Shown: positions 10,973-32,647, counted from the first letter of the stretch. The stretch: 64,000 bases of DNA from an uncultured Thermoplasmata archaeon (GCA_963773945.1 CAVZDD010000004.1:40795-104794); one strand, 5' to 3'. Notes: generated from the sequence alone by a model not told the origin. Program-made: numbers and translations.

Positions 10973-11640
10973 CGAGACCGTTGCCGCAATCGGAGTGGCC
11001 CGGGGTCTTTCGTCGCGGCCGGGAGTTGTACACCCGGAACCTCCGGCCCGGGGAACGGGTCTACGGGGAGGAACTCATCGTCGAAGACGGGGTCGAGTAC
11101 CGGCACTGGGACCCATGGCGCTCGAAACTGGCGGCGTACCTGTTGAACGGTGCCTCGCGACTGCCGTTCGAACATCCCCGACGGGTGCTCTATCTGGGAG
11201 CGGCCCACGGCACGACGATCAGCCATCTCTCAGACCTGCTGCCCGACGCCCAGTTGTTCGGGATCGAGAAGAGCGGCGGGTCCTTCGGCGCTTTCCTCGC
11301 GCTCTCCCACCGCCGGCCCAACCTCTACCCGATCCTGGCGGACGCCCAACTCCCCGAGCGATACCAGGCGGATGTGGGCCCCATCGATTTCCTCTATCAG
11401 GACATCGCCCAGCGGAACCAGGCCGACGTGTTCGCCGAGAATGCGACGGCGTGCCTCGCTGCTGCGGGGAGCGCCCTCCTCATGCTCAAGGTCCGGTCGG
11501 TCACACAGCGGCGATCGGTAGCCGCCGTGGTCACCGAGACTCGGTCTTCCCTCACTCGCCAGGGCCTGCGGGTCGTGGACCAGCGGACCCTCGCCCCGTT
11601 CTCCCGTGACCACGTCGCGCTGGCCGTCTCCCGAGCTTAA
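10969..11640 (+). CDS. flpA: fibrillarin-like rRNA/tRNA 2'-O-methyltransferase
   Basis: 'LYTRNLRPGERVYGEELI', 'YRHWDPWRSKLAAYLL', 'VLYLGAAHGTTISHLSD' and 'FLYQDIAQRNQADV' match archaeal fibrillarin. The start is uncertain: TTG 10969 overlaps the RidA stop, and TTG 10981 is the alternative. Confidence 0.8.
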   Translation: MTRPLPQSEWPGVFRRGRELYTRNLRPGERVYGEELIVEDGVEYRHWDPWRSKLAAYLLNGASRLPFEHPRRVLYLGAAHGTTISHLSDLLPDAQLFGIEKSGGSFGAFLALSHRRPNLYPILADAQLPERYQADVGPIDFLYQDIAQRNQADVFAENATACLAAAGSALLMLKVRSVTQRRSVAAVVTETRSSLTRQGLRVVDQRTLAPFSRDHVALAVSRA

Positions 11641-13301
11641 TCATCCCCCACCGTTCATCGGCGGCTTCCGGGGAAAATACCCCCGGCCCGGTCCGACCTC
11701 GGGTGGTCATCTGCCGCGAAAGCGTCGAGCCGCGGGGCGCCGGTGGTCGTGGTCGGTCGGGGGAGAAGTCGCGTGCATTCTCGGTGCGAGCTTGGCGGCC
11801 ATCCTCGCCTTGCTCCCCGCTGGACTTATCGTAACGGACGTCGCAGGCGTGTCGACGTTCCCCGTTAGCATTTCGAGTTCCGCCGACCCGGCCGACGTCG
11901 ACCTCCCGTTCGAACTCACCGCCAACGTTCCAGGAGCGGTGGACGGATACCGCTATCAGTGGACGGACAGCCAGGGCGGTTCCGAGGACACGCCTACTTG
12001 GGAGCTAGACGTCGACAACCCCGGCAACCTGAAAGTGACGCTGGTTGTCACAAACCCCGGCGGCGCCCAGGGTACCGCGACGGTGACGGTCTCCATCGTC
12101 CCGCCCCCGACGGTGTACGTAAGTTCGCCCCTCTCCCAGTTCGACGCCGGTGTCCCGGCCCCCTTCTTCCTCGACGTGGTCGGAGGTGTGCCACCCTTCG
12201 CGGCGACCTGGAATGCATCCAGCGGAGGACCGAACGGGAGCGTGGGCCTCCCGCACGATGGGGTTTATTCCGAGGTGGTCACGTTCCCGACTCCAGGGCG
12301 TGCGTGGGTCCGGGCCCAGGTGGTCGACACCCTGGGCGACTTCTCCGGCACGGCAGAATTCACCACCGAAGTAGTGCCGGACGGGTCGATCGCGCTGGCG
12401 ACGAATGGATCGATCGGAGAGGTCGGATGGCCGCTCGGAGCCCTCGTGGTCATCGAGAACGGGGCCCCTCCGTTTCGATGGTCACTCTCCAGTTCCGTCA
12501 CGGTCGCCGCGAGCCCGGGTCCCGTTGGGATCTTCCCATCAGACGGAGTCTATCGATGGAATCTCCTCTTCTCCGCACCGGGGACCGCGTATCTGAACCT
12601 GACCGTGGTCGACACGTTGGGCACCGTGGACTCCGCGATGACGGTCGTCACGATCGCACCGCCCTTGTCGGTCAACGTGACCTCCGCCGGTCGTGATCCG
12701 GCCACGCCGTTCGCCGTCGGAGCCGACGTCGCCGGCGGACTACCACCGTACACGTACCAAATTCAACTATCCGATGGCGAGACGTCCAGCGGCTCCCTCG
12801 TAGCGCCGGGACCCATCGCGGCGACCTTCGATCCCTCCCCCGCGGGGAATTATACCGTCGAGGTCCGGGTCACGGATGCACTAGGCCGGACGTCAATCTG
12901 TACCCAAGATCTCCGGGTTGTAGGAGAATCATCGATTGACCCTCCCCTCGCGGCCAACCTTTCCGTCGAGGGGGGATTGGTCGTGTTGGTTGCCGGCCTC
13001 GTGCTCCTCGGCCTGTATGTCCTCCGCCGGCGACGTACCGGGTACTGCTTCCCCCGGCTCCGTTCCGCCATCGGTCCTTCCGGCGGTACGACAGCTGATG
13101 GAACGATCGCAGATTCTCGATCGCGAGACGCTGCTGCTACTGGGCGAGGAGGCGGGGGAGGCCACCGATGCCGTGGAGGCGGCGCTGCGCACGTTGATTC
13201 GAACCGGGGAGGTAACGACCGAGCCGGGACCCGGGAACGATGAGGTCCTGCGTTGGAGAGGAAACGCGCCCTCCAAAGAACCCCTCGAGGGTCCGCAATG
13301 A
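11606..13301 (+). CDS. secreted PKD/Ig-like repeat surface protein with C-terminal TM anchor and cytoplasmic tail, apparent frameshift
   Basis: Four roughly 90-aa repeats with 'GG(V/L)PP(F/Y)' and '(V/T)VDTLG / VTDALG' motifs. The TM is 'GGLVVLVAGLVLLGLYVL' followed by RRRR. After about 13040-13055 the plausible reading moves to the frame of ORF 12936..13301. That frame ends in TGA 13299-13301, overlapping the next gene's ATG. Confidence 0.65.
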
Positions 13302-13678
13302 GACACCCGCGCAACCTGGGCCGTCCCTTGCTTACCCTACTGGTACTGGCCCTCGTCGTTTCTCTGGTCGTCCCACAGGCCTCAGCACAACCTCCAAGAA
13401 CCTCCGGGATCGCGTCCGACGCATCGAGTACGAACCCGGCGGTTGACAATTTCAGCGCCGCCATCGGTCGACTCGTCACCCTAGCGGCTGCCGCCGGGGG
13501 CGGGCTCCTCTCCTTGGTCTGGGCCCGCGTCGCGCTCAGCTGGTTCTCCCACGATTCCATGAAAAAGGTCCTCGCGAAGGAGCGCGCCCGGGACGCCCTG
13601 ATCGGTACCCTCCTCTTCGTAGGCGCGGTGAGCGGTCTCGTCTGGGCCCTGGCGAACTGGGTCGTGACCGGAACCTGA
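13298..13678 (+). CDS. VirB2/TrbC-like pilin candidate (signal peptide plus two hydrophobic helices)
   Basis: ATG 13298 forms an ATGA overlap with the upstream stop. The signal peptide is 'MRHPRNLGRPLLTLLVLALVVSLVVPQASA'. The mature part has two hydrophobic helices separated by the basic loop 'SWFSHDSMKKVLAKERARD'. The assignment rests on topology only. Confidence 0.5.
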   Translation: MRHPRNLGRPLLTLLVLALVVSLVVPQASAQPPRTSGIASDASSTNPAVDNFSAAIGRLVTLAAAAGGGLLSLVWARVALSWFSHDSMKKVLAKERARDALIGTLLFVGAVSGLVWALANWVVTGT

Positions 13679-13692
13679 CCGGGGGGAGAGCC

Positions 13693-14871
13693 ATGGTCGA
13701 CTGGAATGCCATCGACTGGAACGTCGTGGTCCAGGCGATTCTTTTTGCGCTCTTCACCGCCGGAACGGCGATACTCAACCTCGTGATCCAACCGACCTAT
13801 GACAACCTCATCGTCCCAGAACTTTCAGCTCCGGCGCTCTTTCCCTCGATCGCCCACTCCGGCCCGAATGCAGGGTTCCTATCGGTCGCGATACAGTTCA
13901 GTGACTTCCTGCTCCAGAACCTCGTCGACCCGGCGATTGCCTTGGTCCTGGTGGGTCTCGCGGGTCTCTACCTCTTCCGGTCGTTCTCGAACCGAATCGG
14001 GAGCCGACTCGAACCGTTGCTTCCCCGGTTAGTCATCGCGCTGCTGGGCGCGAATTTCACGCTTCCCCTCGCCGCTTCGGTGTTGGATCTGGGGGGAACG
14101 ACCTTCCGACTAGTCTCGAGCTTCGACGGAGGGGCCTGGCGGCATTGGGCAAACATCCTGCCGGACGGTGGAGCCAGCTTTTCCTGGGATAACGGGGTCC
14201 TCGCCTTCGTGGTCACCTTCGCACTCTTCGCGATGGTGCTGGCGCTGGCCACCGTCGTCGCCCTCCGGGACGCGATGATCGCCGTCTTGCTCGTGCTTCT
14301 CCCCATCTTCACGCTCCTGTGGGCCTTCCCGCCACTTGCGTCGCTCGCTCGGCGGGGGTGGACCCTGCTCGTTGAGCTCGCCTTTCTTCCCGCGGTGATT
14401 CTGATTCCGCTCGAGCTCGCGGTCGGAGCCCCGTCTGTGCTGCTCGTCCTCGCGTATCTGTCGATTGCCGTGGGATCTCCGTATCTCATCTCCATCTCTC
14501 GGACTCAGCTGGGGGGGCTGGGATTTCCCTCGGCCGGAGGAGCTCTCACGGGGGGGCTCCAGCGTGGTCTCACCGTCGCTTCACTGACTACCCAAGGTGG
14601 AGTGAACTCCCTCGCCCCGAGCGTCACCGCTCCCGGGCGGGCGGGTCAGGTGGGCTCCGCGGCTCGGAGTCTGTCGAGTCATCTCGGCAAGGGGCCACTC
14701 CCGGCCGGCCTGGCACTCGGAGCCGGCCAACTCGTGACGCAGGGTTCCCGTCACCTGCTCCAACATCTACGTCAATTCCGGGCCGCCACGACGTCGGTGC
14801 CGGCCCACTCTTCCTGGTCCGTGCGCCCGGAGGGACCTCCGGCCGGCGGAGGTCCCGGGGGTCCGGGGTAG
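13693..14871 (+). CDS. polytopic membrane protein, VirB6/TrbL/CedA-like candidate
   Basis: 392-aa ORF with at least 6 hydrophobic helices and a Gly/Ser/Ala-rich C-terminal tail. It sits between the pilin-like and VirB3/VirB4-like genes. The assignment rests on topology and synteny. Confidence 0.45.
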   Translation: MVDWNAIDWNVVVQAILFALFTAGTAILNLVIQPTYDNLIVPELSAPALFPSIAHSGPNAGFLSVAIQFSDFLLQNLVDPAIALVLVGLAGLYLFRSFSNRIGSRLEPLLPRLVIALLGANFTLPLAASVLDLGGTTFRLVSSFDGGAWRHWANILPDGGASFSWDNGVLAFVVTFALFAMVLALATVVALRDAMIAVLLVLLPIFTLLWAFPPLASLARRGWTLLVELAFLPAVILIPLELAVGAPSVLLVLAYLSIAVGSPYLISISRTQLGGLGFPSAGGALTGGLQRGLTVASLTTQGGVNSLAPSVTAPGRAGQVGSAARSLSSHLGKGPLPAGLALGAGQLVTQGSRHLLQHLRQFRAATTSVPAHSSWSVRPEGPPAGGGPGGPG

Positions 14872-14874
14872 GCC

Positions 14875-15630
14875 ATGGGAATCGGTACCGCGGACCTGGG
14901 GGCTATCCCAATCCTTCAACTGGCCCCACGTCGGCTCCATCTGGGCCCCTTCGGGTCCGGCATGGATCTCGCGAAATTTCTGTGCGTCGCCACCATCGGC
15001 GCCGTCGTGGCCGCGGTCAGCTCCGCCGTGGTCTGGTTGCCCTTTCTCGGCGCCGGGGCGATAGTCGCCTTCGTACGCGTCGAGGGACGCAGCCTCGACC
15101 AGTACGCGGTGGGTTACTGCCGGTTTCGGTGGCGCACCTCCGTCGGGTGGAACCGGGCCCCATCGATCCCTCGCGGTGGTCCCCCTCGCGTCCGAGGAGA
15201 AGGTCACGGGAATCTCTCGGTCCGCGCGGGGGGCATTCCCATTGCCTACCTGCCCCCCGCGGACCTGCAACGACTATTCGAGGAATGGCGCTCGACCCTC
15301 GCGGCGTTCGATCGACCCATCGGCCTCCGGATGAGGGGAGAACGGTTCTCCCCACTCCCCTTTCTGCCCCGCTTCGGTAGTTCCACGGTCGGGGAGAACG
15401 TCGCACTCGCATCGTACTGCGAACTCGTCCGGGCCTTGCTCCGCCAACGATACCGGAGAGTCGTCGACCTCATGATATGGGAGGATCCACTCGAGCGACA
15501 CCCGACGAAGTTGGGTATTGAGTCGGACGTGTCGGAGCTGGTCACCGCCCTGGAACGACTGGGGATTCCGGTCACCCGGGCGACCCGCAATCTCCGGGAC
15601 GGCGGACTCGTCCGAGGGGAAGTTTCTTGA
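14875..15630 (+). CDS. VirB3/PrgI-like membrane protein with soluble C-terminal domain
   Basis: 251-aa ORF starting 3 nt after the upstream stop. An N-terminal hydrophobic hairpin 'FLCVATIGAVVAAVSSAVVWLPFLGAGAIVAF' is followed by 'VRVEGRSLDQY'. This resembles PrgI/VirB3 family proteins, which precede VirB4. Confidence 0.45.
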   Translation: MGIGTADLGAIPILQLAPRRLHLGPFGSGMDLAKFLCVATIGAVVAAVSSAVVWLPFLGAGAIVAFVRVEGRSLDQYAVGYCRFRWRTSVGWNRAPSIPRGGPPRVRGEGHGNLSVRAGGIPIAYLPPADLQRLFEEWRSTLAAFDRPIGLRMRGERFSPLPFLPRFGSSTVGENVALASYCELVRALLRQRYRRVVDLMIWEDPLERHPTKLGIESDVSELVTALERLGIPVTRATRNLRDGGLVRGEVS

Positions 15631-15986
15631 CCGCGGGCTCCCGAGAGCCCCCTGCAGGGGAACTCGACCCCCTTCCCGCCGCCACCATCGGGACGCTACT
15701 CGCTAGCGTGACCTCGTTGGTCTGGCCCGAATTGAATTCGGCGGCCGTAAGCCTGGCCGTCCTGGCAACTTTCGTGGTCTGGGTACGGGCGCTGCACGCG
15801 TTCCGTCGACGGCGCACCTCGGGGTATGCCCCGGGCCGGCTCCTTCCGCTGGCGGCCGTAGGGACGGTGGGCTGGAGCGGAGCCTTCCTGCTCGGTACAA
15901 CGTCTCCGGTCGGCCGGGCATTGCTGCTAGGGGTGGTATCGGTAGGTTTGTGGTTCCTGAGCCGACCGGTCAGCGCCGGAATCTGA
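15627..15986 (+). CDS. small integral membrane protein (about 4 TM)
   Basis: 119-aa ORF. Its TTG start overlaps the upstream TGA (TTGA). It ends 1 nt before the ATPase ATG. Confidence 0.45.
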   Translation: MTAGSREPPAGELDPLPAATIGTLLASVTSLVWPELNSAAVSLAVLATFVVWVRALHAFRRRRTSGYAPGRLLPLAAVGTVGWSGAFLLGTTSPVGRALLLGVVSVGLWFLSRPVSAGI

Positions 15987-15987
15987 C

Positions 15988-17766
15988 ATGGCCGAGCACC
16001 GCAGCCCCCTCAACGCTACGGAGGGCCGGTCGTGGCTGGTCCGCGGCGTCCAGGTCGATGCGCCGGTCGTCGTGACACTCCTCCCTCCTGCCGTGCCGTT
16101 CGGTTTCCTGGGCCGGGTGCTACCGACGACCGAACCGGTGGAGCTCCGGCTCACCTTCCGCAAGCTTTCGAGGACGGACGCGCTCGAAGTGGCCGAAAAG
16201 GCCGCCGCGGTGGCGGAAGCGGACCTCCAGACCCGCGTCAACAGCCCCGGTGCGCGCCCATCCGAACTCCACCACGACGCGGAGAGCGCCCGAGAACTGG
16301 CGGCACGGGTGGCGAGCCGGGACCAGGACCTCTGGCGCGTGGGGCTGAGCTTCCATGCCCGGGCCCGCGGTCGCGGGAAGGCCGAGCGCGCGCGTTCGCA
16401 CCTGACCCATCGGTTGGGAGAGTTGGGTTTTCGGGTGCGGTTGCCGACCTTCGAGACGGGACTCATTCCGGAGGAACCCAATCCGAGTGAACTTTCGCCG
16501 TGCCCGACCGGGTACTGGCACACCCTGGCGACCGACGCGATCGCGGCGCTGTTCCCGTTCGTGGACGAGAGCGTGCACGAACCCGGAGGGATTCTCGTGG
16601 GGTTGCTTCTCGACGACGCGAACCCCGTCTTCCTCAACCGGTGGGCGCATGGAAGCTATTCCTGGGGACTATTCGGAAGCACCGGGGCGGGCAAGTCGTT
16701 CGCCGCGGCCCTTTGGGCCCTTCGCACCCGCTGGAGCCTTCCGGAGACCCAGTTGCTCTTCGTCGACCCGCTGGGAGAATTCGCGCGCTTCACACGGGCC
16801 CTCGGGGGCTCAGTCATCCGCGTCGGTCCGGGGGGTTCCGAGCGGCTAAATCCGTTGGATCCCATTTCCACCGGAGGGGACCGGGCCGCGAAAGCGGGCC
16901 GAGTCGGCACGATGCTCCGGGCCCTGTTTCCCAGTCTCACGGATGCCGAGGGCGCCCTCTTGGACGGACGCTTGAGTCAACTGTACCATCAGGGTCCTAA
17001 GGCCCCGGTTTGGTCCGACCTCCTCGAGACGCTCAACGGCCGACCGGGAGCCGAACGGTTGACCGAACTCCTCGAGGTGTTCCGGCACGGATCCCTCCAG
17101 TACCTCGACGGGCCGACCACCGTATCGCTCGACGGATCCCCGATCACCCTGGATCTCCATGATGTGCCCCCCGAGCAGATGCCGTTCCATCTGACGTACG
17201 CCCTCGATGCGCTCACGGCCCGTCTGCGGGCGGACGATCGTCCGAAGCTCATGGTGGTGGACGAGGCGCACTACCTCCTGCGTCATCCGGCCACGGCCGA
17301 GTTCCTGGATCAACTGGTCCGCCACGTTCGACACTACCATACCGGACTCCTGGTGCTGAGCCAGAATCCGGACGATTTCCTGACCACCGCGGCCGGCCGC
17401 TCCCTGCTTCGGAATCTCCGGGCGACGATTCTCTTGCGCCTCGCGGAGGTTTCGACCGGCACCCAGGATTTCTTTCAACTCACTCCGGCGGAGTCGGAGT
17501 GGCTGCCCCGCGCCCGCTTGCCGGGGGAAGCCGGCTACGCGGAGGCCCTGCTCCGGTTCGGACCAGGCCATCTCCCCATCGCGATTGTCGCTTCCACCCC
17601 CGAATTCGAATGGTTGGCAGGGCTGTTAGGGCAGGGGGGAACCTCGAACGTTCCCGAGGCGGATTCCCTTCGAACGGCACGTTTAAGTCCGCCCGGCCGG
17701 GAAGCCTCGCCCGATGGTGGAGATCGCGGCCGCGACGGAAGAGGGGCCCGCCCGTCGTCGCCGTGA
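15988..17766 (+). CDS. VirB4/TrbE/CedB-type conjugation-family ATPase
   Basis: 592-aa ORF. It has Walker A 'GSTGAGKS', Walker B 'LMVVDEAHYLL' and 'GLLVLSQNPDDF...LLRNLRATILLRL', plus 'ERLNPLDP', as in VirB4/TrbE/TraC ATPases. Confidence 0.75.
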   Translation: MAEHRSPLNATEGRSWLVRGVQVDAPVVVTLLPPAVPFGFLGRVLPTTEPVELRLTFRKLSRTDALEVAEKAAAVAEADLQTRVNSPGARPSELHHDAESARELAARVASRDQDLWRVGLSFHARARGRGKAERARSHLTHRLGELGFRVRLPTFETGLIPEEPNPSELSPCPTGYWHTLATDAIAALFPFVDESVHEPGGILVGLLLDDANPVFLNRWAHGSYSWGLFGSTGAGKSFAAALWALRTRWSLPETQLLFVDPLGEFARFTRALGGSVIRVGPGGSERLNPLDPISTGGDRAAKAGRVGTMLRALFPSLTDAEGALLDGRLSQLYHQGPKAPVWSDLLETLNGRPGAERLTELLEVFRHGSLQYLDGPTTVSLDGSPITLDLHDVPPEQMPFHLTYALDALTARLRADDRPKLMVVDEAHYLLRHPATAEFLDQLVRHVRHYHTGLLVLSQNPDDFLTTAAGRSLLRNLRATILLRLAEVSTGTQDFFQLTPAESEWLPRARLPGEAGYAEALLRFGPGHLPIAIVASTPEFEWLAGLLGQGGTSNVPEADSLRTARLSPPGREASPDGGDRGRDGRGARPSSP

Positions 17767-18229
17767 CTCGTGGAACCTCCGCAACATCGTCGAAGACGTC
17801 ACGGGACGCTCCATCGAAGACCTGCAAGACCCCGGCCGCCCGGCGCACCCGTTCCTGAAGTCGGTTCCTCCATCGAACGCGACGCCTCCGAGCCGACTCA
17901 CCGTAACCCCGTCGGCGCCGGAATCCCCCGCGGACGGGGGCGAATGGGACGACGATCCCGTGGCCCGAGTTCACCCGCCGCTGGTGGGCGAGATGGGCCG
18001 CACTTTTCATGGTGCCGAGCACGAACATCATCAACCCACCCTCGATGAGATGACAACGGCGGCCGAACCGCCGTCCCCCGGCACCCGGCCCCACGCGCCC
18101 GGACCGTCTCGCCGACCCGAGCGCATCTATCTCCACTACCTCTTGCTGCACATGGATCGATTGTCCGATTCCGCGCTGAAGTACCTCCAGCGCCAGGTCG
18201 AAGAGGAAGCGCAGCACCGGCACATCTAG
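17714..18229 (+). CDS. hypothetical acidic protein (last gene of the operon)
   Basis: 171-aa ORF overlapping the ATPase end by 53 nt. It is mostly disordered-looking with a helical C-terminus 'ERIYLHYLLLHMDRLSDSALKYLQRQVEEEAQ'. Confidence 0.4.
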   Translation: MVEIAAATEEGPARRRRDSWNLRNIVEDVTGRSIEDLQDPGRPAHPFLKSVPPSNATPPSRLTVTPSAPESPADGGEWDDDPVARVHPPLVGEMGRTFHGAEHEHHQPTLDEMTTAAEPPSPGTRPHAPGPSRRPERIYLHYLLLHMDRLSDSALKYLQRQVEEEAQHRHI

Positions 18230-18249: not shown

Positions 18250-19059
18250 TCACCGGAGCCGACGGCGAGCACGCCCGAGTTCCCGAGCCCGGGTCCGATC
18301 GACCTCGATGCCGATGGCGTCGCGGCCCAACTTCGCGGCTTCCCACAGCGTCGTCCCCGTGCCGGCGAACGGATCGAGGACCGTGTCCCCCCGGATGGAG
18401 AACATCCGGATCAATCGGCGGGGGATCTCCGCCGGGAAGGCCCCGGAACGTCCGCCCCCCTGAGACTGCGGTCGGCCTCGAATTCCCTCCCAGATCTGGG
18501 AGAACCAGAGATCCCGTTCCGCCCGAGTGTACCGACTGGCCCGCCGAACCGGCGATCTGGCCGGTAGCTTGCGGAGTGACCCCTTCCGGAAGAGTAGAAT
18601 GAACTCGCAATCGAGTGTTACATAGGCATTGGGCGGGAGAAACCCGGACCCGAGAAAGGCGTTCGGTTTGTTGGTCGGTTTTTTCCACAAGATGTACGGG
18701 AGCGACCGAAAACCGAGCCCTTCCGCCGCTACGACGGTACGCGCATGGTTCGGCCAGAGCCGAAACTCGCCCCCGACGCTTCGAACGGCGTCCCCTATGT
18801 TGACGGCAAGGATTCCTCCGGGAATCAACGCCCGGTAGCAGCCCGCCCAGACCCGGTCCAGCTCCCGGTGCATCGCCTCAAAATCGGCGGCGCCCCAGGC
18901 CGCGAACAGTTCGTCCCACTGCGGGATCATCGGATACGGCGGTGAGGTGACCACTAGGGCCACCGACCCCGAGCGAACGTCGGCCATGCGACGGGCGTCC
19001 CCGGCGATGATTCGGACCGACCCCGGGGAAGTCAAGGTGGTTCGGGGACGCCGGCTCAC
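18250..19059 (-). CDS. beta-class DNA methyltransferase (N4-cytosine or N6-adenine), no adjacent endonuclease
   Basis: 269-aa ORF with a GTG start. Motif IV 'VVTSPPYP' precedes motif I 'DTVLDPFAGTGTT', which is the beta-class order. Confidence 0.8.
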   Translation of the reverse strand: MSRRPRTTLTSPGSVRIIAGDARRMADVRSGSVALVVTSPPYPMIPQWDELFAAWGAADFEAMHRELDRVWAGCYRALIPGGILAVNIGDAVRSVGGEFRLWPNHARTVVAAEGLGFRSLPYILWKKPTNKPNAFLGSGFLPPNAYVTLDCEFILLFRKGSLRKLPARSPVRRASRYTRAERDLWFSQIWEGIRGRPQSQGGGRSGAFPAEIPRRLIRMFSIRGDTVLDPFAGTGTTLWEAAKLGRDAIGIEVDRTRARELGRARRRLR

Positions 19060-27956: not shown

Positions 27957-28775
27957 ATGGACTGGGGACTGCAGAACCGGATGGCCCGATTCATCAAGCC
28001 AAGTACCGGTCACACGGTGATGCTCGCGGCCGACCATGGCTATTTCATGGGCCCCACCCGCCGGCTCGAGAATCCCCGGTCGACGTTGGAGCCCCTCCTT
28101 CCTTTCGCGGACGCGATTGCCGTCACCCGGGGGGTGCTTCGACGTTCGATCCCCGCCACCTCGGACGTGCCCGTCGTGCTCCGCGTTTCGGGCGGTGTCA
28201 CGGTGCTCAAGGAAGACCTGAGCGACGAGGCGATCACCACCTCGATGGAGGAGGCGCTGCGCCTCAACGTGTGTGCGGTGGCTCTCTCCGTGTTTGTCGG
28301 GGCCCCTCACGAGCACGAATCTCTCGCGTCCCTCGCGGAGCTGGTCGATGAGGGCGAGGCGCTGGGGATGCCCGTGATGGCCATCACCGCCGTCGGGAAG
28401 GAACTCGAAAAGCGGGATGCGCGCTACCTTTCCTTGGCGTGCCGGGTGTCGGCGGAACTTGGGGCCCACCTGGTCAAGACCTACTACTGCGAGAATTTCG
28501 AAAAAGTCGTCGAAGGCTGCCCGGTCCCGTTGGTCGTCGCGGGGGGCCCGAAGCTCGACACCGACCAATCCGTCCTCGAGCTCTGCGCAGGGGCGATCGA
28601 AAAGGGCGCCATCGGGGTCGACATGGGTCGGAACATTTGGCAATCCGACCACCCCGTCGCGATGATCAAGTCGATTCGGGCGATTGTCCACGAGAAGGCG
28701 ACTGTGCGAGAGGCGCTCCAGGTCTTGGAAGCGAGTAAGAAGTTGGCCCGGCCCGTCACCCCCGTCCAGTCCTAA
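27957..28775 (+). CDS. class I aldolase, DhnA/FbaB/LsrF family
   Basis: 272-aa reading from ATG 27957. 'MLAADHGYFMGP', 'LGAHLVKTYY' (Schiff-base lysine context) and 'GAIGVDMGRNIWQ' fit this family. It could be FBP aldolase or an ADH-synthase-type enzyme. Confidence 0.75.
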   Translation: MDWGLQNRMARFIKPSTGHTVMLAADHGYFMGPTRRLENPRSTLEPLLPFADAIAVTRGVLRRSIPATSDVPVVLRVSGGVTVLKEDLSDEAITTSMEEALRLNVCAVALSVFVGAPHEHESLASLAELVDEGEALGMPVMAITAVGKELEKRDARYLSLACRVSAELGAHLVKTYYCENFEKVVEGCPVPLVVAGGPKLDTDQSVLELCAGAIEKGAIGVDMGRNIWQSDHPVAMIKSIRAIVHEKATVREALQVLEASKKLARPVTPVQS

Positions 28776-28877
28776 GCCGACTCGGCCCAGGCCGAGACAA
28801 CTTCCCCGGAAAACGCGAGCTTCGGGGGGTTCTCGACCGCTGAGAAGACAGATGTAGGCCGAGCCGGTACCATCTGC

Positions 28878-29489
28878 ATGGCCGGCGGCCTCAATCCGGT
28901 AGCGCAGAACGTCATGCAAGCCCTTTCCGGGCACCCAAGCCTGGTGATGAAGATGCAGATTCTTTCCATGGGGAAGAACTACGACGTGATGGACCCGAAT
29001 CAGACGGTCCTTTGCAAAATCGGGCTCGATGCGGGCCAGAACGTTTCCGGTCAGATGCTAGGAAATGCCGTAGGGGGTTACATTGGGAGGTATGTGGCCC
29101 GGAGCGTGAACTACACCTACAAGGTGAAGGATCCCGCCGGCAATGTCGGTTTGGAAATTCGTAAGACCGGGGGTGGAAATCACTCCCAATTCCAAGTGGT
29201 CGACCCCTTCCTGGGAACGTCGGTGGGCCTCATCGAAATGAAACGGGGCCTCATGGGCGGGCTAGACGCGACGTGGGTGGCGCCCTCGGGACAGCCATTG
29301 ATGAACACGAAGGGCAGCATCCTCCGTCGCCAGTACGAGATTGTAGGGGCCGATGGCCGCGAGATGGGTCATGTCCGGCACAAGATCCTCGCGATCCGGG
29401 ATGTTTGGGAGCTCGAATTGGGGCAGGGGTCCAACCACCTGTTCTCCTCGATATTCGCAACGATCCTGGATTTCGAAAAGGAAATGTGA
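28878..29489 (+). CDS. LURP-one-related / scramblase-like (DUF567, Tubby C-like fold) protein
   Basis: 203-aa ORF. It has repeated beta-hairpin-like 'Y.V.D..G' segments ('YDVMDPNQ', 'YKVKDPAGN', 'YEIVGADGRE') and a terminal helix 'LFSSIFATILDFE'. The gene is visibly less GC-rich than its surroundings. Confidence 0.45.
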   Translation: MAGGLNPVAQNVMQALSGHPSLVMKMQILSMGKNYDVMDPNQTVLCKIGLDAGQNVSGQMLGNAVGGYIGRYVARSVNYTYKVKDPAGNVGLEIRKTGGGNHSQFQVVDPFLGTSVGLIEMKRGLMGGLDATWVAPSGQPLMNTKGSILRRQYEIVGADGREMGHVRHKILAIRDVWELELGQGSNHLFSSIFATILDFEKEM

Positions 29490-29558
29490 GGCGGCGGGAG
29501 CCCCGGCGAGTCTCTGCCGAGCCCTGATGCTCCACGCGCTCTAGCGCAGCTCTTCACG

Positions 29559-30020
29559 ATGCCGACAAGAAGGATTCAACTGTCGAAAGCCGTCGAGCGA
29601 AAGTTGGCGGCGACGCTATTCAATCGTACCTGGGGCCTTCTGCTGAAGAAGGAACGGACGCCGCCGGAGCAGGAGGAGATGGTCCATACCGTTCACGCGT
29701 CGCGATATCACTGGGGGCGCGTCGGTAAGCCGCTCAACCTGTCGATCGCCGAGTGGCAACTCTCTCGAGTCTATTCGGTGCTCCGGCGGGCCGAGCCCGC
29801 GCTCTATTACGCTCGGCGCTGCCTCGCGATCTCCCGACAGGCTCGCCTGGAGCCGTTCTATCTGGGGTATGCGTACGAGGCCCTCGCCCGGGCTTCCTCC
29901 GTCGCCGGAAATCGACCGGACCGGAACCGGTTTCTCCGGGAGGCGAAACGTTTCGCTGAATTGGTCACGGATCGGGAGAGTCGAGACCTCCTGGTCGCGG
30001 ACCTGCGCACCCTCCCCTAG
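29559..30020 (+). CDS. hypothetical helical protein
   Basis: 153-aa ORF with good coding appearance. No recognised motif. Confidence 0.5.
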   Translation: MPTRRIQLSKAVERKLAATLFNRTWGLLLKKERTPPEQEEMVHTVHASRYHWGRVGKPLNLSIAEWQLSRVYSVLRRAEPALYYARRCLAISRQARLEPFYLGYAYEALARASSVAGNRPDRNRFLREAKRFAELVTDRESRDLLVADLRTLP

Positions 30021-30089
30021 GGGACCCGCGTCGGCCCACGAAAGCGGCCGGGGTCGCTTTCATATCCGTCAGCGGTACCCGGACATCGC

Positions 30090-30174
30090 GCGGGGATCGC
30101 CCAGCTTGGTCAAAGGCGCCAGATTCAGGGTCTGGTCTCGTAGGAGTTCGTGGGTTCAAATCCCTCTCCCCGCA
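30090..30174 (+). tRNA. tRNA-Leu (anticodon CAG), long variable arm
   Basis: The parse is GCGGGGA TC GCC C AGCTTGGTCAAA GGC G CCAGA TTCAGGG TCTGG TCTCGTAGGAGTTC GTGGG TTCAAAT CCCTC TCCCCGC A. The T stem has one U50:U64 mismatch. Confidence 0.85.
30159..30174 (+). repeat. att-like direct repeat copy 1 (3' end of tRNA-Leu)
   Basis: AATCCCTCTCCCCGCA. It recurs at 31813-31825 (13 nt) and at 32597-32617 (21 of 22 nt including GGTTC). Confidence 0.7.
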
Positions 30175-30400
30175 GACTTTTACTCGCCCGAGCCATCGCA
30201 GCTCCTGGCGATTCGGAACTAGAACGGGCGAGAATCCCAGTTCCCCCTCCGGAAAAGGGTGGGGTTCCTAACAACGAGTGCGATGCTCGGCTAGATCCAA
30301 CGGTACGTAGCAATTATTGCCGGTCAGCATCCCTATTCGGCAGCCCGTTATATTCAACGGACTTTCCGGGGGCACCGGGAGTTCCGGGGAGAAAAAATCT

Positions 30401-31222
30401 ATGCCGTATGTCAAGACGAAGGACGGAACGCAGATCTTCTACAAGGACTGGGGCAGCGGCCAACCGGTGGTCTTCAGTCACGGTTGGCCTCTGTCAGCGG
30501 ACGACTGGGACGGGCAGATGCTGTTCTTTTTGACGCATGGCTACCGCGTCGTTGCACACGACCGGCGGGGGCATGGACGCTCCACCCAGATATCGGAAGG
30601 CCATGACCTGGACCACTACGCGGACGACCTAGCGGCGGTGATGGACGAGCTCGACCTCAGGACAGCTATCAACGTGGGGCATTCCACGGGCGGAGGCGAA
30701 GTCGCCCACTACATCGCCCGGCACGGCACCAAGCGCGTGGCCAAGTGCGTACTGATCAGCTCCGTGCCGCCGCTCATGTTGAAGACGGATGCGAACCCGG
30801 ATGGGACCCCCCTCGCGGTCTTCGATCAGTTGCGCGCCGGGCTCGCGGCAAATCGGCCGCAGTTCTACATGGACTTCACGATGCCGTTTTAGGGATTCAA
30901 CCGCCCGGGGGCAAGAATCTCCGAAGCTATCCGCCAGCACTGGTTTTTGCAGGGCATGATGGGAGGGGCCAAGGCTCACTACGACGGAATCAAGGCCTTT
31001 TCGGAGACCGATTTCACCGAGGACCTGAAGAAGATCGAGGTACCGATGCTGGTCATGCACGGAGACGACGACCAGATCGTTCCGATCAAGGCGACGAGTC
31101 TCCGGACGGCGAAGCTCGTCAAGAATGCCACCCTGAAAGTCTACGCGGGGTTCCCGCACGGGATGCCAAGAACCAATCCGGATCAGATCAACGCAGATTT
31201 GCTTGCGTTCTTCAAAGCATAG
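30401..31222 (+). pseudogene. non-heme chloroperoxidase / arylesterase-type alpha/beta hydrolase interrupted by an in-frame TAG
   Basis: ORFs 30317..30892 and 30947..31222 are in the same frame. Read-through gives '[34 protein letters not shown]', so TAG 30890-30892 sits where this family has Tyr in 'PFYGFNRPG'. The nucleophile is 'GHSTGG'. Confidence 0.75.
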
Positions 31223-31420
31223 GAAGTCGGGCCCCGGGGCAAAGGGCAACGCCCCAGCCGGAAGAACGGCTCGAAACGTGCCCGTTTTTCGAAGGAGGTC
31301 GATTTGGCTCCGCGACATGGGTCCAAAGACTTGCGAGACCAACGGTGAGAAGCGCCACTCCCCCAGCTACTCAATTCAAGTTCAGGGTCGCTTCATCTGG
31401 GGGCCGGCAGTGCAACGATT

Positions 31421-31495
31421 ATGGGAGTACTCGGTTGGATCGTCGTTATCGTCGTCGTCGTCGTGGTGCTAGCTTGGATTGGCATCATCCACTGA
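31421..31495 (+). CDS. possible 24-aa hydrophobic peptide
   Basis: It reads ATG...TGA as MGVLGWIVVIVVVVVVLAWIGIIH and is directly followed by nested hairpins. There is no obvious RBS or TATA, so this is speculative. Confidence 0.2.
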   Translation: MGVLGWIVVIVVVVVVLAWIGIIH

Positions 31496-31497
31496 GA

Positions 31498-31532
31498 GGT
31501 GCCGATGGCACCGAAGGCTAGCCTTCGGTGCC
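31498..31532 (+). terminator. nested perfect palindromes (alternative hairpins)
   Basis: GGTGCC-GAT-GGCACC forms a 6-bp stem. GGCACCGAAGGC-TA-GCCTTCGGTGCC forms a 12-bp stem. The two share the GGCACC segment. Confidence 0.4.
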
Positions 31533-31812
31533 CCGCGCCTCCTAGAGGTACCAGTTTGCCAGCTCCCCGCACGGCCGCGCGCGCTAACAGCTCGGATTAG
31601 CGTAATAGCCAGCGCACTCGGCGAGTGCACGCACGTTCCGGGAACGCGCTTCTACCCTGTCCGTGAAGGGCCCGTTCCCTGACGGGTGGACTTGCAGGCG
31701 ACCCTTTGAACCGATTTCAAACGACGGGGTTGTGTAACGGAGGGATCTCCCGCGCGAGAGGGTTTGGGCCCCCCCACGGTCGGCATGTGGGGATTTGAAC
31801 TGTTCAGTTGTG

Positions 31813-31825
31813 CCCTCTCCCCGCA
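31813..31825 (+). repeat. att-like direct repeat copy 2
   Basis: CCCTCTCCCCGCA is identical to tRNA-Leu positions 30162-30174. It is preceded at 31790-31800 by GGGGATTTGAAC, an inverted T-loop-like fragment. Confidence 0.55.
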
Positions 31826-31982
31826 CGGTACCCGTAGAAGTACCTATCGAAGAATCGCTCGATCGTCGACCCCTCCGGCGGCTCAAATCCGGTTCGTTTC
31901 ATCCGGAGGATTTGGAAGCGTCCATGGAAAACATTAATTCAATGGAGTCCATCATTTGGGCGTGGCAGCTTCGAAGAATCCG

Positions 31983-32204
31983 ATGACGAGCCTGTCAATC
32001 CATCGATCGACGTTGAGGAGCTTGCAAGAGCTCAAAACCGGTGCAGAAACTTGGGACGACTTTCTGGAACGCCTGTCCTCGTACTACGAGAACACGCTCA
32101 CGCCCGAGCTTCACTCCGAGCTCCGGCGACGCTCGGCAGGTCCCAGAATCCCTCTTCGGGAAGTTCTTCGGCAGCATGAGGAACTGAAACGTAGGGGCCG
32201 CTGA
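31983..32204 (+). CDS. RelB-like / archaeal-type antitoxin
   Basis: 73-aa reading from ATG 31983. 'SLSIHRSTLRSLQELKTGAETWDDFLERL' follows the archaeal antitoxin pattern (I.V..ET...L..LK...ESFSD.I..L). It ends 5 nt before the toxin start. Confidence 0.6.
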   Translation: MTSLSIHRSTLRSLQELKTGAETWDDFLERLSSYYENTLTPELHSELRRRSAGPRIPLREVLRQHEELKRRGR

Positions 32205-32209
32205 CGGAT

Positions 32210-32539
32210 GTGGTCGGCGGCCACACCCAGAACTACCTCGAACTGATCGATTTCGCGGATGACGCTCGCCACGAGCTTCTCGCACTCCCACAAGAAGTCC
32301 GGGAACATTTCTTTGAAGCGTTCCCGGCCTTAGCCGCCCACCCCACTCGACGGACATCGGACCTGGATGTCCAGAACCTCCACGATCCTCGAGGGAGAAG
32401 GACCCGCTACTGGCGCCTCAAGGTCTCTGGCGGTTACAGGGCGATTTATCGCCTTGTGCACGGAAGGGTACACATTGAGGCTATTCGACCACGGCCGGGA
32501 GTTTATTCGTGGCTCTACAAGGTACTAGGTCGGAGGTGA
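32210..32539 (+). CDS. RelE/ParE family toxin
   Basis: 109-aa ORF with a GTG start. 'YWRLKVSGGYRAIYRLVHGRVHIEAIRPRPGVY' is the typical RelE/ParE C-terminal core. Confidence 0.7.
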   Translation: MVGGHTQNYLELIDFADDARHELLALPQEVREHFFEAFPALAAHPTRRTSDLDVQNLHDPRGRRTRYWRLKVSGGYRAIYRLVHGRVHIEAIRPRPGVYSWLYKVLGRR

Positions 32540-32596
32540 CTCAGATGGTCGTGCGCTACCACGGGCGCACCTTCCTGCATATTTGTATCGCCAGGC

Positions 32597-32617
32597 GGTT
32601 CCAATCCCTCTCCCCGC
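32597..32617 (+). repeat. att-like direct repeat copy 3 (partial tRNA-Leu 3' end)
   Basis: GGTTCCAATCCCTCTCCCCGC versus the tRNA GGTTCAAATCCCTCTCCCCGC. There is one mismatch. Confidence 0.7.
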
Positions 32618-32647
32618 GCTCTTCCCGGCAGTTGGGCCGGGATCGTT

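What the first reader, a model, noticed from the sequence alone, without database searches (positions are those of the whole stretch)
11606..18229. Chromosomal VirB2/VirB6/VirB3/VirB4-type operon: candidate archaeal Ced/Ted-like DNA-transfer pilus system
Seven co-directional genes are packed with 4-nt overlaps or gaps of 14 nt or less (ATGA at 13298, TTGA at 15627, 3-nt and 1-nt gaps at 14875 and 15988). The anchor is a 592-aa ATPase with Walker A GSTGAGKS, Walker B LMVVDEAH and a VLSQNPDDF block, as in VirB4/TrbE. The preceding genes have the topologies expected for the rest of a minimal type-IV-secretion core. These are a signal-peptide protein with two hydrophobic helices and a basic loop (VirB2-like pilin), a 392-aa polytopic protein (VirB6/TrbL/CedA-like), a protein with a TM hairpin plus soluble domain (VirB3/PrgI-like), and a 4-TM protein. 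There is no relaxase, VirD4, VirB11, integrase or replication gene in the block. The flanks are housekeeping genes (fibrillarin, HPS). By established knowledge, that gene set is what bacterial conjugation machines share with the crenarchaeal Ced and Ted DNA-import systems. A version headed by a PKD-repeat surface protein is, as far as I can tell, not a described arrangement.
Basis: partly seen in the sequence, partly recalled or inferred. Interest (0 to 1): 0.85.

Follow-up and report, generated by a model that had tools for sequence, protein, structure and literature searches.

The report
Chromosomal archaeal T4SS-like pilus operon
A soil archaeon (order Lutacidiplasmatales, class Thermoplasmata) carries in its core chromosome a conserved seven-gene operon built from the minimal parts of a bacterial conjugation machine (pilin, membrane channel, VirB3-like anchor, VirB4 motor) but with no mobile-element genes, so it is probably a 'domesticated' pilus and DNA-transfer apparatus of a kind so far described only in hyperthermophilic Crenarchaeota.

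Summary
The block is real. Seven tightly packed co-directional genes lie between fibrillarin and a DNA methylase/HPS. Two corrections are needed. Gene 1 starts near 11711-11792, not 11606. In this window it is split by a one-base insertion at 13040, probably an assembly error.

Gene 6 is a VirB4-family ATPase (NCBIfam CD1110 VirB4-like 5e-38; PDB 4AG5 1e-16). Gene 2 is a signal-peptide two-helix protein, and 12 of 35 orthologues hit Pfam T4SS_pilin. Gene 3 is polytopic, with weak but convergent VirB6/TrbL evidence. Gene 4 has a PrgI/VirB3-like hairpin plus a ferredoxin-like domain, again on weak similarity.

The operon sits at the same chromosomal position in about 60 species-level genomes (ATPase 48-78% identity) and is under purifying selection. 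It has its own conserved promoter-like region. There is no relaxase, coupling protein, integrase, att repeat or tRNA. Simpler versions occur elsewhere in Thermoplasmata. A four-gene core was mentioned in passing in a 2016 genome paper but never analysed.

My reading is a domesticated minimal T4SS that builds a VirB2-type pilus. A DNA import/exchange role (Ted/Ced/ComB-like) is inference only. I rate it a new variant of a known kind, interest about 0.6.

The parts
11649..11707 (+). Promoter-like region of the operon: box1 CACCGTTC (11649-11656), TATA-like AAATAC (11675-11680), GGTGG (11702-11707; candidate transcription start / Shine-Dalgarno)
   Evidence: The three elements recur with fixed spacing downstream of the fibrillarin stop in orthologous loci. 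TATA-like: 34 of 46 loci against at most 6 in 200 shuffles. box1: 25 of 46 against at most 9. GGTGG lies 26-29 nt after the TATA-like box. Transcription itself was not shown.
11711..13301 (+). g1: type I membrane protein. Signal peptide, PKD/Ig-like repeat ectodomain with many N-X-S/T sites, TM helix, RRRR, then a conserved cytoplasmic winged-helix-like tail. Frameshifted in this window by an extra G at about 13040. Alternative start TTG 11792.
   Evidence: Pfam PKD 5e-8 and PKD_4 3e-7. TM segments. Intact 502-aa version in L084/L086. Indel located. Tail conserved across orthologues, and its profile hits the wHTH domains of NsrR/Rrf2, PdhR, Lrp and MarR at E 0.02-0.1. The ectodomain is the most divergent part of the block, at 21-51% identity.
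13298..13678 (+). g2: VirB2-type pilin candidate (126 aa). Cleavable-looking signal peptide (...VVPQASA/QPP), helix 1, basic loop (SWFSxDxxKKVxAKxRARDA), helix 2.
   Evidence: The mature part is strongly conserved and the signal peptide is variable. 12 of 35 orthologues match Pfam PF18895 T4SS_pilin (best 4.2e-5) and 1 matches TrbC/VirB2. The L068 orthologue matches T4SS_pilin at 0.0074. No sequence match to any solved pilin. dN/dS 0.13.
13693..14871 (+). g3: polytopic membrane protein (392 aa), VirB6/TrbL-like channel candidate with a Gly/Ser/Ala-rich C-terminal tail
   Evidence: AF2 model with pLDDT 71. The best four Foldseek PDB hits are all TrwI/VirB6 of the R388 T4SS (7o3v F/J/G, 8rtd L; E 0.46-1.4, prob up to 0.90, TM-target 0.44). 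A profile search of 1.84 billion representatives gives 82 hits. Of 55 distant ones, 5 carry Pfam TrbL (best 5e-8) and 2 carry TrbL_4, with no other membrane-protein family among them. Faint precomputed TrbL_3 hits. No Pfam or PDB sequence hit for the protein itself.
14875..15630 (+). g4: VirB3/PrgI-like candidate (251 aa). N-terminal RxxRLGPF motif, TM hairpin, RP(D/E)GxxxDE motif, then a cytoplasmic ferredoxin-like alpha/beta domain.
   Evidence: NCBIfam SCO6880_fam 7.4e-6 over residues 35-94 (25 bits, cut-off 60). PrgI matches 7 of 34 orthologues (best 0.025) and TraC_F_IV matches 3 of 34. Motif-level resemblance to PrgI-like genes upstream of bacterial virB4. hhalign E 0.028. AF2 pLDDT 67. 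Foldseek finds only generic ferredoxin-like folds and no T4SS protein.
15627..15986 (+). g5: small membrane protein (119 aa) with about 4 hydrophobic segments. Fast-evolving, no family.
   Evidence: Present at the same position in 56 loci. Topology is conserved but sequence is not, with mean column identity 30%. No Pfam or NCBIfam hit.
15988..17766 (+). g6: VirB4-family ATPase (592 aa) with intact Walker A/B. It lacks about the first 200 residues of bacterial VirB4 N-terminal domains and has no TM segment.
   Evidence: NCBIfam VirB4-like CD1110 4.9e-38, Mbov_0397 VirB4 2.4e-23, VirB4_CagE 2.4e-16, TraC-F 5e-15. HerA_antiphage only 0.017. The CedB model is not hit. PDB 4AG5 VirB4 C-terminal domain 9.7e-17. 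Nearest plasmid relatives are haloarchaeal plasmids at 29-31% identity, E 1e-33. Bacterial VirB4 of 777-850 aa aligns from its residue of about 225 to g6 residue 21.
17714..18229 (+). g7: conserved soluble protein (171 aa) of unknown fold. It travels with the ATPase, not with the methylase.
   Evidence: 30 invariant columns in 32 orthologues, including RRRxSW, YPPLVG and PERIYLHYLLLHLDRL. No Pfam, NCBIfam or PDB match. Still next to the block in loci that lack the methylase (L028, L041, L050). dN/dS 0.11.
18250..19059 (-). Neighbour, membership uncertain: N6/N4 DNA methyltransferase, convergent with g7
   Evidence: Pfam N6_N4_Mtase 3.4e-34. Adjacent in most but not all orthologous loci, and absent from the L068 version. 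Listed as context, not as a shown component.

Best explanation
This is a chromosomally fixed ('domesticated') minimal type IV secretion apparatus of the monoderm/archaeal VirB4 lineage.

Shown by computation:
- A VirB4-family ATPase (g6) is encoded in one conserved operon with a Sec-signal two-helix pilin-type protein (g2), a polytopic VirB6/TrbL-like protein (g3), a PrgI/VirB3-like hairpin protein (g4), a small 4-TM protein (g5), a soluble conserved protein (g7) and a surface Ig/PKD-repeat protein with a cytoplasmic winged-helix tail (g1).
- The operon has its own promoter-like region.
- It is inherited vertically at one chromosomal site across the order Lutacidiplasmatales.
- It carries no mobile-element genes.

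Inferred mechanism:
- g2 is exported by Sec, cleaved, and held in the membrane.
- The g6 hexamer docks on the g3 channel through g4, and perhaps g5 and g7. It extracts pilin and polymerises it into a VirB2-type, lipid-containing hollow pilus.
- Because there is no relaxase or coupling protein, the machine does not export a dedicated element. It more likely takes DNA in, from a contacted sister cell as Ced/Ted do, or from the medium as ComB does. The imported DNA would serve recombination or nutrition.
- g1 is the candidate contact or recognition module. Its variable ectodomain faces outward. Its conserved wHTH tail faces the cytoplasm, where it could bind DNA or regulate the operon.

The confidence given (0.55) is for the whole statement including DNA transfer. 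For the T4SS-derived VirB4 + pilin + channel core alone I put it at about 0.85.
For: - VirB4 identity of g6.
- Pilin features and T4SS_pilin/TrbC hits of g2 orthologues.
- VirB6-like signals for g3 from two independent routes, fold search and profile-to-Pfam transitivity.
- PrgI/SCO6880-like N-terminus of g4.
- Same ordered block, with DUF885/fibrillarin on one side and methylase/HPS on the other, in about 60 species-level genomes. These include contigs of 0.3-2.2 Mb and a 2.18-Mb chromosome.
- Purifying selection, dN/dS 0.11-0.25.
- Conserved promoter-like architecture.
- No tRNA, att-like repeats or mobility genes, and only relatives at 28% identity or less on viral-type contigs.
- Reduced versions with pilin, B6-like, g4-like and VirB4 genes in other Thermoplasmata.
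- Precedents for relaxase-less, T4CP-less chromosomal T4SS derivatives that import DNA (Ced/Ted: PMC9905601, PMC11868833), and for chromosomal T4SS with PF18895-type pilins (Patescibacteria: PMC12102498).
Against: - No experiment and no expression data.
- The VirB6 and VirB3 assignments rest on sub-threshold similarity. Foldseek E is 0.46 or weaker, the TrbL bridge goes through hits at E 1e-4 to 1e-3, and PrgI/SCO6880 scores are below their cut-offs.
- The AF2 models are only moderate (pLDDT 71 and 67).
- The window's own g2 gives no Pfam hit, and the g2 profile matches no solved pilin, including CedA1, TedC and VirB2 if present in PDB.
- No DNA-processing gene (nuclease, helicase, ParA, HerA) is in the block, unlike many Ted loci.
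- The soluble domain of g4 resembles no T4SS component.
- A pilus could serve adhesion or exchange of something other than DNA.
Confidence: 0.55

Rival explanations
1. The same T4SS-derived machine builds a pilus or channel, but for something other than DNA. Options are adhesion, cell-cell contact or biofilm formation, or exchange of proteins, nutrients or signals. This has been proposed for the essential chromosomal T4SS of Patescibacteria.
For: The pilin matches PF18895, the family used to find Patescibacteria T4SS pilins (PMC12102498). An Ig/PKD adhesin-like protein heads the operon. There are no DNA-processing genes in the block. The review PMC12857230 describes the Patescibacteria system as of unknown substrate.
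Against: All characterised archaeal relatives (Ced, Ted, conjugative plasmids) move DNA (PMC9905601, PMC12857230). These archaea are free-living with genomes of about 2 Mb, not reduced epibionts (contig 2.0 Mb; PMC9287336).
Confidence: 0.27
2. A decaying or cryptic integrated conjugative element (ICE or plasmid remnant) rather than a host function.
For: GC3 of the block (0.73-0.78) is lower than that of flanking housekeeping genes (0.81-0.88). A DNA methylase is adjacent. The nearest plasmid-borne VirB4s are on haloarchaeal plasmids.
Against: The block sits at an identical insertion context in about 60 species, with ATPase divergence down to 48%. All seven genes are intact and under purifying selection. 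There is no integrase, relaxase, T4CP, replication gene, tRNA or flanking repeat. There are no close relatives on viral or mobile contigs.
Confidence: 0.03
3. Not a T4SS derivative at all. On this view it is a generic FtsK/HerA-type ATPase with unrelated membrane proteins, and the T4SS-like similarities of g2-g4 are composition or topology artefacts of hydrophobic proteins.
For: Each of the g2, g3 and g4 similarities is individually below curated thresholds. The profiles find nothing in PDB sequences.
Against: g6 matches four different VirB4 models far better than HerA (131 bits against 14 bits). Three independent weak signals all point to the cognate T4SS partner family, and in the canonical gene order of pilin, B6, B3, B4. 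VirB6 chains are the top four of 350,542 PDB chains.
Confidence: 0.05

Closest known systems
Ted system of Thermoproteales (TedA/TedB/TedC; Beltran et al. 2023, PMC9905601)
   Same: Both are chromosomal, with no relaxase or T4CP. Both have a genuine VirB4-type ATPase, a VirB6-like polytopic protein and a VirB2-like pilin with a cleavable signal peptide. Both occur in archaea.
   Different: The phylum differs (Thermoplasmatota, mesophilic acidic soils). There is no detectable sequence similarity of the pilin to any solved pilin. There are no HerA, ParA or Rad50 neighbours. The genes form one tight operon. There are extra conserved genes: the PrgI/VirB3-like g4, g5, g7 and the Ig-repeat/wHTH g1. 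Homology to TedA, TedB and TedC themselves was not tested because no sequences were at hand.
Ced system of Sulfolobales/Desulfurococcales (CedA, A1, A2, B, D, E; PMC9905601, PMC11868833)
   Same: It is a domesticated T4SS derivative on the chromosome. It has pilin, channel and ATPase, and its small 2-TM accessory protein CedA2 is loosely comparable to g5.
   Different: The CedB/CedD ATPases are HerA-clade proteins with TM anchors. g6 is VirB4 proper, soluble, and does not match the NCBIfam CedB model. The CedA1 pilin is unprocessed, whereas g2 has a signal peptide. PMC11868833 states that VirB3 homologues are absent from archaeal systems, whereas g4 is a VirB3/PrgI-like candidate.
Chromosomal T4SS of Patescibacteria/CPR (PMC12102498, PMC12857230)
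   Same: The host is a monoderm and the system is chromosomal with no relaxase. VirB4 is of the MPF-FATA-related lineage. It has PrgI/VirB3, VirB6 and VirB2-like pilins of Pfam PF18895.
   Different: The CPR loci are bacterial. They usually add TrsD, VirB8-like and VirB1-like genes, often a T4CP, and pilin arrays. Here there is a single pilin gene and there are lineage-specific g1, g5 and g7.
Helicobacter pylori ComB competence T4SS
   Same: It is a chromosomal T4SS used for DNA uptake without a relaxase or T4CP, and it contains B2, B3, B4 and B6 homologues. This comparison rests on established knowledge and was not tested here.
   Different: It is a diderm system with B7-B10 outer-membrane core components. 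No homology beyond the generic T4SS families is implied.
Four-gene 'type IV secretion components' cluster of Thermoplasmatales (Cuniculiplasma CSP5_1185-1189; arCOG05340, arCOG04034, arCOG05369; PMC5155288)
   Same: It is most likely the same module in reduced form. Loci L083 and L072 have the order pilin-like (38% identity to g2), B6-like (27%), a 249-262-aa protein, then VirB4 (25-28%).
   Different: It lacks g1, g5, g7 and the methylase neighbour. It was only listed in a genome description, with no pilin, VirB6 or VirB3 assignment and no functional proposal. That L083/L072 correspond to the arCOGs named in the paper is my inference.
VirB4 modules of haloarchaeal plasmids and Gram-positive conjugative elements (MPF-FATA)
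   Same: These are the closest plasmid-borne ATPases, at 29-31% identity over the C-terminal 60% and E about 1e-33. The order small protein, polytopic protein, VirB4 is seen on a Haladaptatus plasmid.
   Different: They sit on plasmids, next to primase and large transfer proteins. VirB4 is full length (745 aa). The neighbouring proteins show no profile similarity to g2 or g3.

Membership tests
Type IV secretion / mating-pair-formation module (VirB4-based) | VirB4-family ATPase with Walker A/B | tested here: met
   NCBIfam VirB4-like CD1110 4.9e-38, plus three other VirB4 models. PDB 4AG5 9.7e-17. Motifs intact. Scores are below the equivalog cut-offs, so this is a divergent member.
Type IV secretion / mating-pair-formation module (VirB4-based) | VirB6/TrbL-type polytopic channel protein encoded with VirB4 | tested here: inconclusive
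   The top four Foldseek PDB hits are TrwI/VirB6, but at E 0.46-1.4. 5 of 55 distant profile hits carry Pfam TrbL and 2 carry TrbL_4. There is no direct Pfam or PDB sequence hit.
Type IV secretion / mating-pair-formation module (VirB4-based) | VirB3/PrgI-type TM-hairpin protein next to VirB4 | tested here: inconclusive
   The hairpin and flanking motifs are present. SCO6880_fam 7.4e-6 (25 bits against a cut-off of 60). PrgI E 0.025 or weaker in 7 of 34 orthologues. hhalign E 0.028. It is separated from virB4 by g5.
VirB2/TrbC-type conjugative pilin (incl. Pfam PF18895 T4SS_pilin) | Signal peptide, two hydrophobic helices joined by a short charged loop, about 70-100-aa mature protein | tested here: met
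   Read directly from the sequence and the alignment of 35 orthologues.
VirB2/TrbC-type conjugative pilin (incl. Pfam PF18895 T4SS_pilin) | Sequence match to a pilin family model | tested here: inconclusive
   12 of 35 orthologues hit PF18895 (best 4.2e-5) and 1 hits TrbC. The window protein itself has no hit at E of 1 or better. The one score seen, 16.8 bits for L068, is below the 26.6-bit cut-off. There is no hit to solved pilins.
VirB2/TrbC-type conjugative pilin (incl. Pfam PF18895 T4SS_pilin) | Polymerises with stoichiometric lipid into a hollow helical filament | not testable with these tools
   Needs filament purification and cryo-EM.
Self-transmissible conjugative element (plasmid/ICE) | Relaxase, type IV coupling protein, integrase or replication module, att sites, mobile distribution | tested here: not met
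   None are found in the block or its 10-kb flanks. There are no repeats or tRNA. The chromosomal site is fixed in about 60 genomes. A soluble FtsK/HerA-like ATPase 30 kb away has only P-loop-level T4CP similarity and no TM anchor.
Ced system | CedB/CedD-type (HerA-clade, often TM-anchored) ATPases | tested here: not met
   g6 does not hit NCBIfam DNA_import_CedB at E of 0.1 or better. CedD matches only at 4.5e-7 over 47 residues (29 bits against 600). VirB4 models score far higher, and there is no TM segment.
Ced system | DNA import between cells demonstrated genetically | not testable with these tools
   No cultured, genetically tractable Lutacidiplasmatales were found in the literature searched.
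Ted system | VirB4-type ATPase, signal-peptide pilin and VirB6-like protein encoded on the chromosome | tested here: met
   with the caveat on VirB6 given above.
Ted system | Orthology to TedA/TedB/TedC; Thermoproteales; HerA/ParA/Rad50 neighbours | tested here: not met
   The host is Thermoplasmata. The neighbours are fibrillarin, methylase and HPS. The pilin profile finds no solved pilin. Direct comparison with Ted protein sequences was not possible.

The most novel reading that the evidence does not exclude
This is a third, independently domesticated archaeal DNA-exchange system, and the first outside the Crenarchaeota/Thermoproteota and the first in mesophilic soil archaea. It retains a VirB3-like subunit, which has been said to be absent from archaeal systems. 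It is headed by a one-component contact sensor: a hypervariable Ig/PKD ectodomain wired through a single TM helix to a cytoplasmic winged-helix domain. That sensor either switches the operon on through the conserved box1 upstream of its promoter, or hands DNA to the channel. On this reading, kin recognition and DNA transfer are encoded in one operon.
Probability: 0.3. Interest if true: 0.8.

Novelty: new variant of a known kind. Interest (0 to 1): 0.6.

Why it matters
Chromosome-encoded conjugation-like machines that move cellular DNA are known experimentally only from hyperthermophilic Crenarchaeota (Ced, Ted).

A conserved, promoter-equipped VirB2/B6/B3-like/B4 operon is fixed in the core genome of a widespread soil order, with reduced forms in acidophilic Thermoplasmatales that can be cultured. 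That would extend this biology to Thermoplasmatota and to moderate environments.

It gives a concrete gene set for testing how uncultured soil archaea exchange or take up DNA. It also supplies an archaeal candidate for the missing VirB3 link between channel and motor.

The Ig-repeat/winged-helix protein at the head of the operon is an unexplored architecture. It could explain how such systems recognise partners.

Tried and rejected
- Profile searches of g2, g3, g4 and g7 against PDB sequences gave nothing useful.
- Pfam on the window's own g2, g3, g5 and g7 gave no hits. The signals appear only across orthologues or distant relatives.
- I tested whether the g4 soluble domain is the missing N-terminal part of VirB4. 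Three weak TraC_F_IV hits prompted this. The AF2 model is a ferredoxin-like fold and Foldseek finds no VirB4 or any other T4SS protein. The idea is not supported.
- g2 and g3 profiles were compared with the two genes upstream of a haloarchaeal plasmid virB4. There was no similarity.
- The NCBIfam 'CPR_pilus_PamR' hit of g1 (1e-6) was followed up. The Pam pilus is an unrelated donor-strand-exchange system, so the hit reflects only the Ig-like fold.
- The ICE hypothesis was tested by looking for tRNA, direct or inverted repeats, a composition step, and close relatives on IMG/VR contigs. All were negative, apart from a modestly lower GC3.
- I asked whether g7 belongs to a restriction-modification pair with the convergent methylase. 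It stays with the ATPase block where the methylase is missing or displaced, so I rejected this.
- Two Pfam calls spent trying to find which distant g3 relatives carry TrbL identified only 2 of the 5.
- One look-up and one script failed.
- A phylogeny with CedB, TedB and HerA could not be built, because no tool returns those sequences.

Full report
**What is in the sequence**

The window is high-GC (67%) archaeal DNA.

- g2 13298-13678
- g3 13693-14871
- g4 14875-15630
- g5 15627-15986
- g6 15988-17766
- g7 17714-18229
- g1 lies upstream of these.

The junctions are as stated: ATGA at 13298, then 14-, 3- and 1-nt gaps and a TTGA overlap. The exception is that g6 and g7 overlap by 53 nt.

The motifs GSTGAGKS, LMVVDEAH and VLSQNPDDF are present in g6. 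A hydropathy scan reproduces the predicted topologies. Fibrillarin (6e-58) ends at 11640. A bifunctional HPS/RraA gene (2e-179) starts at 19090.

**Two corrections to gene 1**

First, the window differs from three 99.97%-identical assemblies of the same population by a few single-base indels. One of these is an extra G at about 13040 that frameshifts g1. In the other assemblies g1 is one 483-502-aa ORF ending at the ATGA overlap with g2. Four of the six indels lie within 6 nt of a GTAC site. I therefore read the frameshift as a long-read assembly error, not a pseudogene. This was not proven.

Second, the GTG at 11606 is inside fibrillarin and upstream of a conserved promoter-like region. In 46 orthologous loci the fibrillarin stop is followed by three elements.

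- A CACCGTTC-like box, in 25 of 46 loci against at most 9 in shuffles.
- A TATA-like AAATAC/AAGTAC, in 34 of 46 loci against at most 6 in shuffles.
- GGTGG, 26-29 nt after the TATA-like box.

Orthologues then start g1 with GTG or ATG a few bases later, giving a normal signal peptide. The window and its closest relative have CTG (11711) at that position. The next in-frame start is TTG at 11792.

**The organism and the conservation of the block**

The ATPase has hundreds of relatives, all labelled Thermoplasmata. A scan of one genome per GTDB species returned about 65 archaeal loci, some named Candidatus Lutacidiplasmatales / Lutacidiplasma silvani. This is the soil order described in PMC9287336, a paper that mentions no secretion or conjugation genes.

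A tblastn synteny table and ORF extraction show the same order in essentially all loci long enough to tell: DUF885(-), fibrillarin, g1-g7, methylase(-), HPS. ATPase identity ranges from 48 to 78%. The contigs run up to 1-2.2 Mb and include a complete chromosome.

The window's own contig is about 2.0 Mb. dN/dS against the closest relative is 0.11-0.25 for g2-g7, compared with 0.06-0.08 for fibrillarin and HPS. dS is near saturation.

There is no tRNA within 10 kb and no flanking repeat beyond chance. There is no integrase, relaxase or coupling protein. Only relatives at 28% identity or less occur on IMG/VR contigs. GC3 of the block is somewhat lower than that of its flanks. The ICE/plasmid alternative is therefore rejected. 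This is a core chromosomal operon.

**What the genes are**

*g6.* It is a VirB4-family ATPase.
- NCBIfam gives VirB4-like CD1110 4.9e-38, Mbov_0397 VirB4 2.4e-23, VirB4_CagE 2.4e-16 and TraC 5e-15. HerA scores only 0.017 and the CedB model gives no hit.
- The only PDB sequence match is the VirB4 C-terminal domain 4AG5 (1e-16).
- It is shorter than bacterial VirB4. Firmicutes proteins of 777-850 aa align from about residue 225.
- The nearest plasmid-borne relatives are on haloarchaeal plasmids (29-31% identity, E about 1e-33), followed by Actinobacteria and Firmicutes.

*g2.* It has a variable signal peptide and a strongly conserved mature part: helix, basic loop, helix.
- 12 of 35 orthologues hit Pfam T4SS_pilin (PF18895, best 4e-5) and one hits TrbC/VirB2.
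- PF18895 is the family used to find VirB2-like pilins in Patescibacteria (PMC12102498).
- No solved pilin is matched by sequence.

*g3.* It has no direct family hit, but two indirect routes agree.
- An AF2 model (pLDDT 71) has TrwI/VirB6 chains of the R388 T4SS as its best four matches among 350,542 PDB chains. The E-values are non-significant (0.46-1.4; prob up to 0.90).
- A g3 profile search of 1.84 billion representatives gave 82 hits. Among 55 distant ones the only recurrent Pfam families are TrbL/VirB6 (5 members, best 5e-8) and TrbL_4 (2 members).
- Many family members also carry faint precomputed TrbL_3 hits.

*g4.* It has a conserved N-terminal RxxRLGPF motif, a TM hairpin and an RP(D/E)GxxxDE motif.
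- These mirror the layout of PrgI-like genes upstream of bacterial virB4.
- The scores are weak: SCO6880_fam 7e-6, PrgI 0.025 or weaker in 7 of 34 orthologues, hhalign 0.028.
- Its soluble domain models as a ferredoxin-like fold with no T4SS counterpart.

*g5.* It is a fast-evolving small protein of about four TM segments.

*g7.* It is a well conserved soluble protein with no detectable relatives. It stays with the ATPase where the methylase is absent.

*g1.* It is a type I membrane protein.
- It has a signal peptide and PKD/Ig-like repeats (Pfam PKD 3e-8). The ectodomain is the most variable part of the block.
- A TM helix and an RRRR stretch follow.
- The conserved cytoplasmic tail gives a profile that hits the winged-helix DNA-binding domains of Rrf2/NsrR, GntR, Lrp and MarR regulators at E 0.02-0.1.

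**Wider distribution**

A more distant Thermoplasmata genome (L068, ATPase 31% identity) has g1-, g2-, g3-, g4- and g5-like genes and the ATPase in the same order. It lacks g7 and the methylase, and sits in another context.

A Thermoplasmataceae genome (L083) and L072 have a four-gene core next to a thioesterase gene: pilin-like, B6-like, a 249-262-aa protein, then VirB4. This is probably the cluster listed as 'type IV secretion components' (arCOG05340, arCOG04034, arCOG05369) in the Cuniculiplasma genome paper (PMC5155288). It is the only prior mention I found.

**How it most likely works**

Shown: a VirB4 motor is encoded with a pilin-type protein and membrane partners. They form a vertically inherited, selected, self-promoted chromosomal operon without mobility genes.

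Inferred from established T4SS knowledge and from Ced/Ted (PMC9905601, PMC11868833):
- The pilin is exported by Sec and cleaved.
- The VirB4 hexamer docks to the g3 channel through g4, possibly with g5 and g7, and drives assembly of a VirB2-type pilus.
- Without a relaxase or coupling protein, the likely direction is import of DNA, either from a contacted cell (Ced/Ted-like) or from the medium (ComB-like).
- g1 is the candidate partner-recognition or regulatory module.

The main rival uses the same machine for adhesion or exchange of something other than DNA, as discussed for Patescibacteria.

**Comparison and novelty**

The system works like Ted more than Ced. It has a true VirB4 and a signal-peptide pilin. 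It resembles the Patescibacteria chromosomal T4SS in parts list (PF18895 pilin, PrgI-like, VirB6-like, FATA-type VirB4).

It is not a member of the Ced family, because the CedB feature was tested and not met. It cannot be called Ted, given the different phylum, the different neighbours and untested orthology.

Reviews up to 2025 list only Ced/Ted and conjugative plasmids for archaea, and one states that VirB3 homologues are absent from archaeal systems (PMC11868833). I therefore class this as a new variant of a known kind.

The T4SS composition is likely, at about 0.85 for the VirB4 + pilin + channel core. The DNA-transfer function is plausible but unproven, at about 0.5.

Noticed in passing
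window 9700, 13040, 23775, 26668 (also 15927, 26844): Single-base indels separate this window from three 99.97%-identical assemblies. Four of the six lie within 6 nt of GTAC, a motif that occurs 210 times in 64 kb (about 5% expected by chance). This pattern fits long-read basecalling errors at a methylated motif. An N6/N4 DNA methylase (18250-19059) is adjacent to the operon.
   Followed up: partly
window 48743-51409 (+), with small ORFs 48393-48746: A soluble 888-aa FtsK/HerA-superfamily ATPase. Pfam TrwB_AAD_bind scores 33 bits over the P-loop only. NCBIfam gives CedD 3e-8, with HerA, TraD and CedB weak. It has no TM segment and a long C-terminal extension. It could be a DNA translocase or helicase. 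A link to the T4SS-like operon 30 kb away is unknown.
   Followed up: partly
window 52124-54271 (+): A paralogue-like protein with the same architecture as g1: signal peptide, Ig-like repeats rich in N-X-S/T sites, a TM helix, RRR, then a cytoplasmic tail that aligns with the g1 winged-helix-like tail. This suggests a family of surface proteins wired to a cytoplasmic wHTH.
   Followed up: partly
window 56783-59035 and 59135-60991 (+): Two further large PKD-domain surface proteins in tandem (Pfam PKD, PKD_4).
   Followed up: no
window 28000-33000; tRNA-Leu(CAG) 30090-30174: A stretch of lower G+C (0.60-0.63 against 0.67-0.70) around the only tRNA gene. About 2.7 kb had no called gene in a sister assembly. 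It might be a small island or non-coding RNA region. No Rfam family other than the tRNA was found there.
   Followed up: partly
window 61496-61808 (-): Archaeal SRP RNA (Rfam RF01857, 144.5 bits), confirming the archaeal origin of the window.
   Followed up: yes
window 11606-18229 versus flanks: GC3 of the seven operon genes and the methylase (0.73-0.78) is consistently lower than that of neighbouring housekeeping genes (0.81-0.88), despite long vertical inheritance. Possible causes are lower expression or an ancient foreign origin.
   Followed up: no
L009, L013, L018 (about 1.2 kb between ATPase and g7); L020, L025 (about 1 kb between g7 and methylase): Some orthologous loci carry an extra insertion inside the otherwise rigid block. 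The content was not examined.
   Followed up: no
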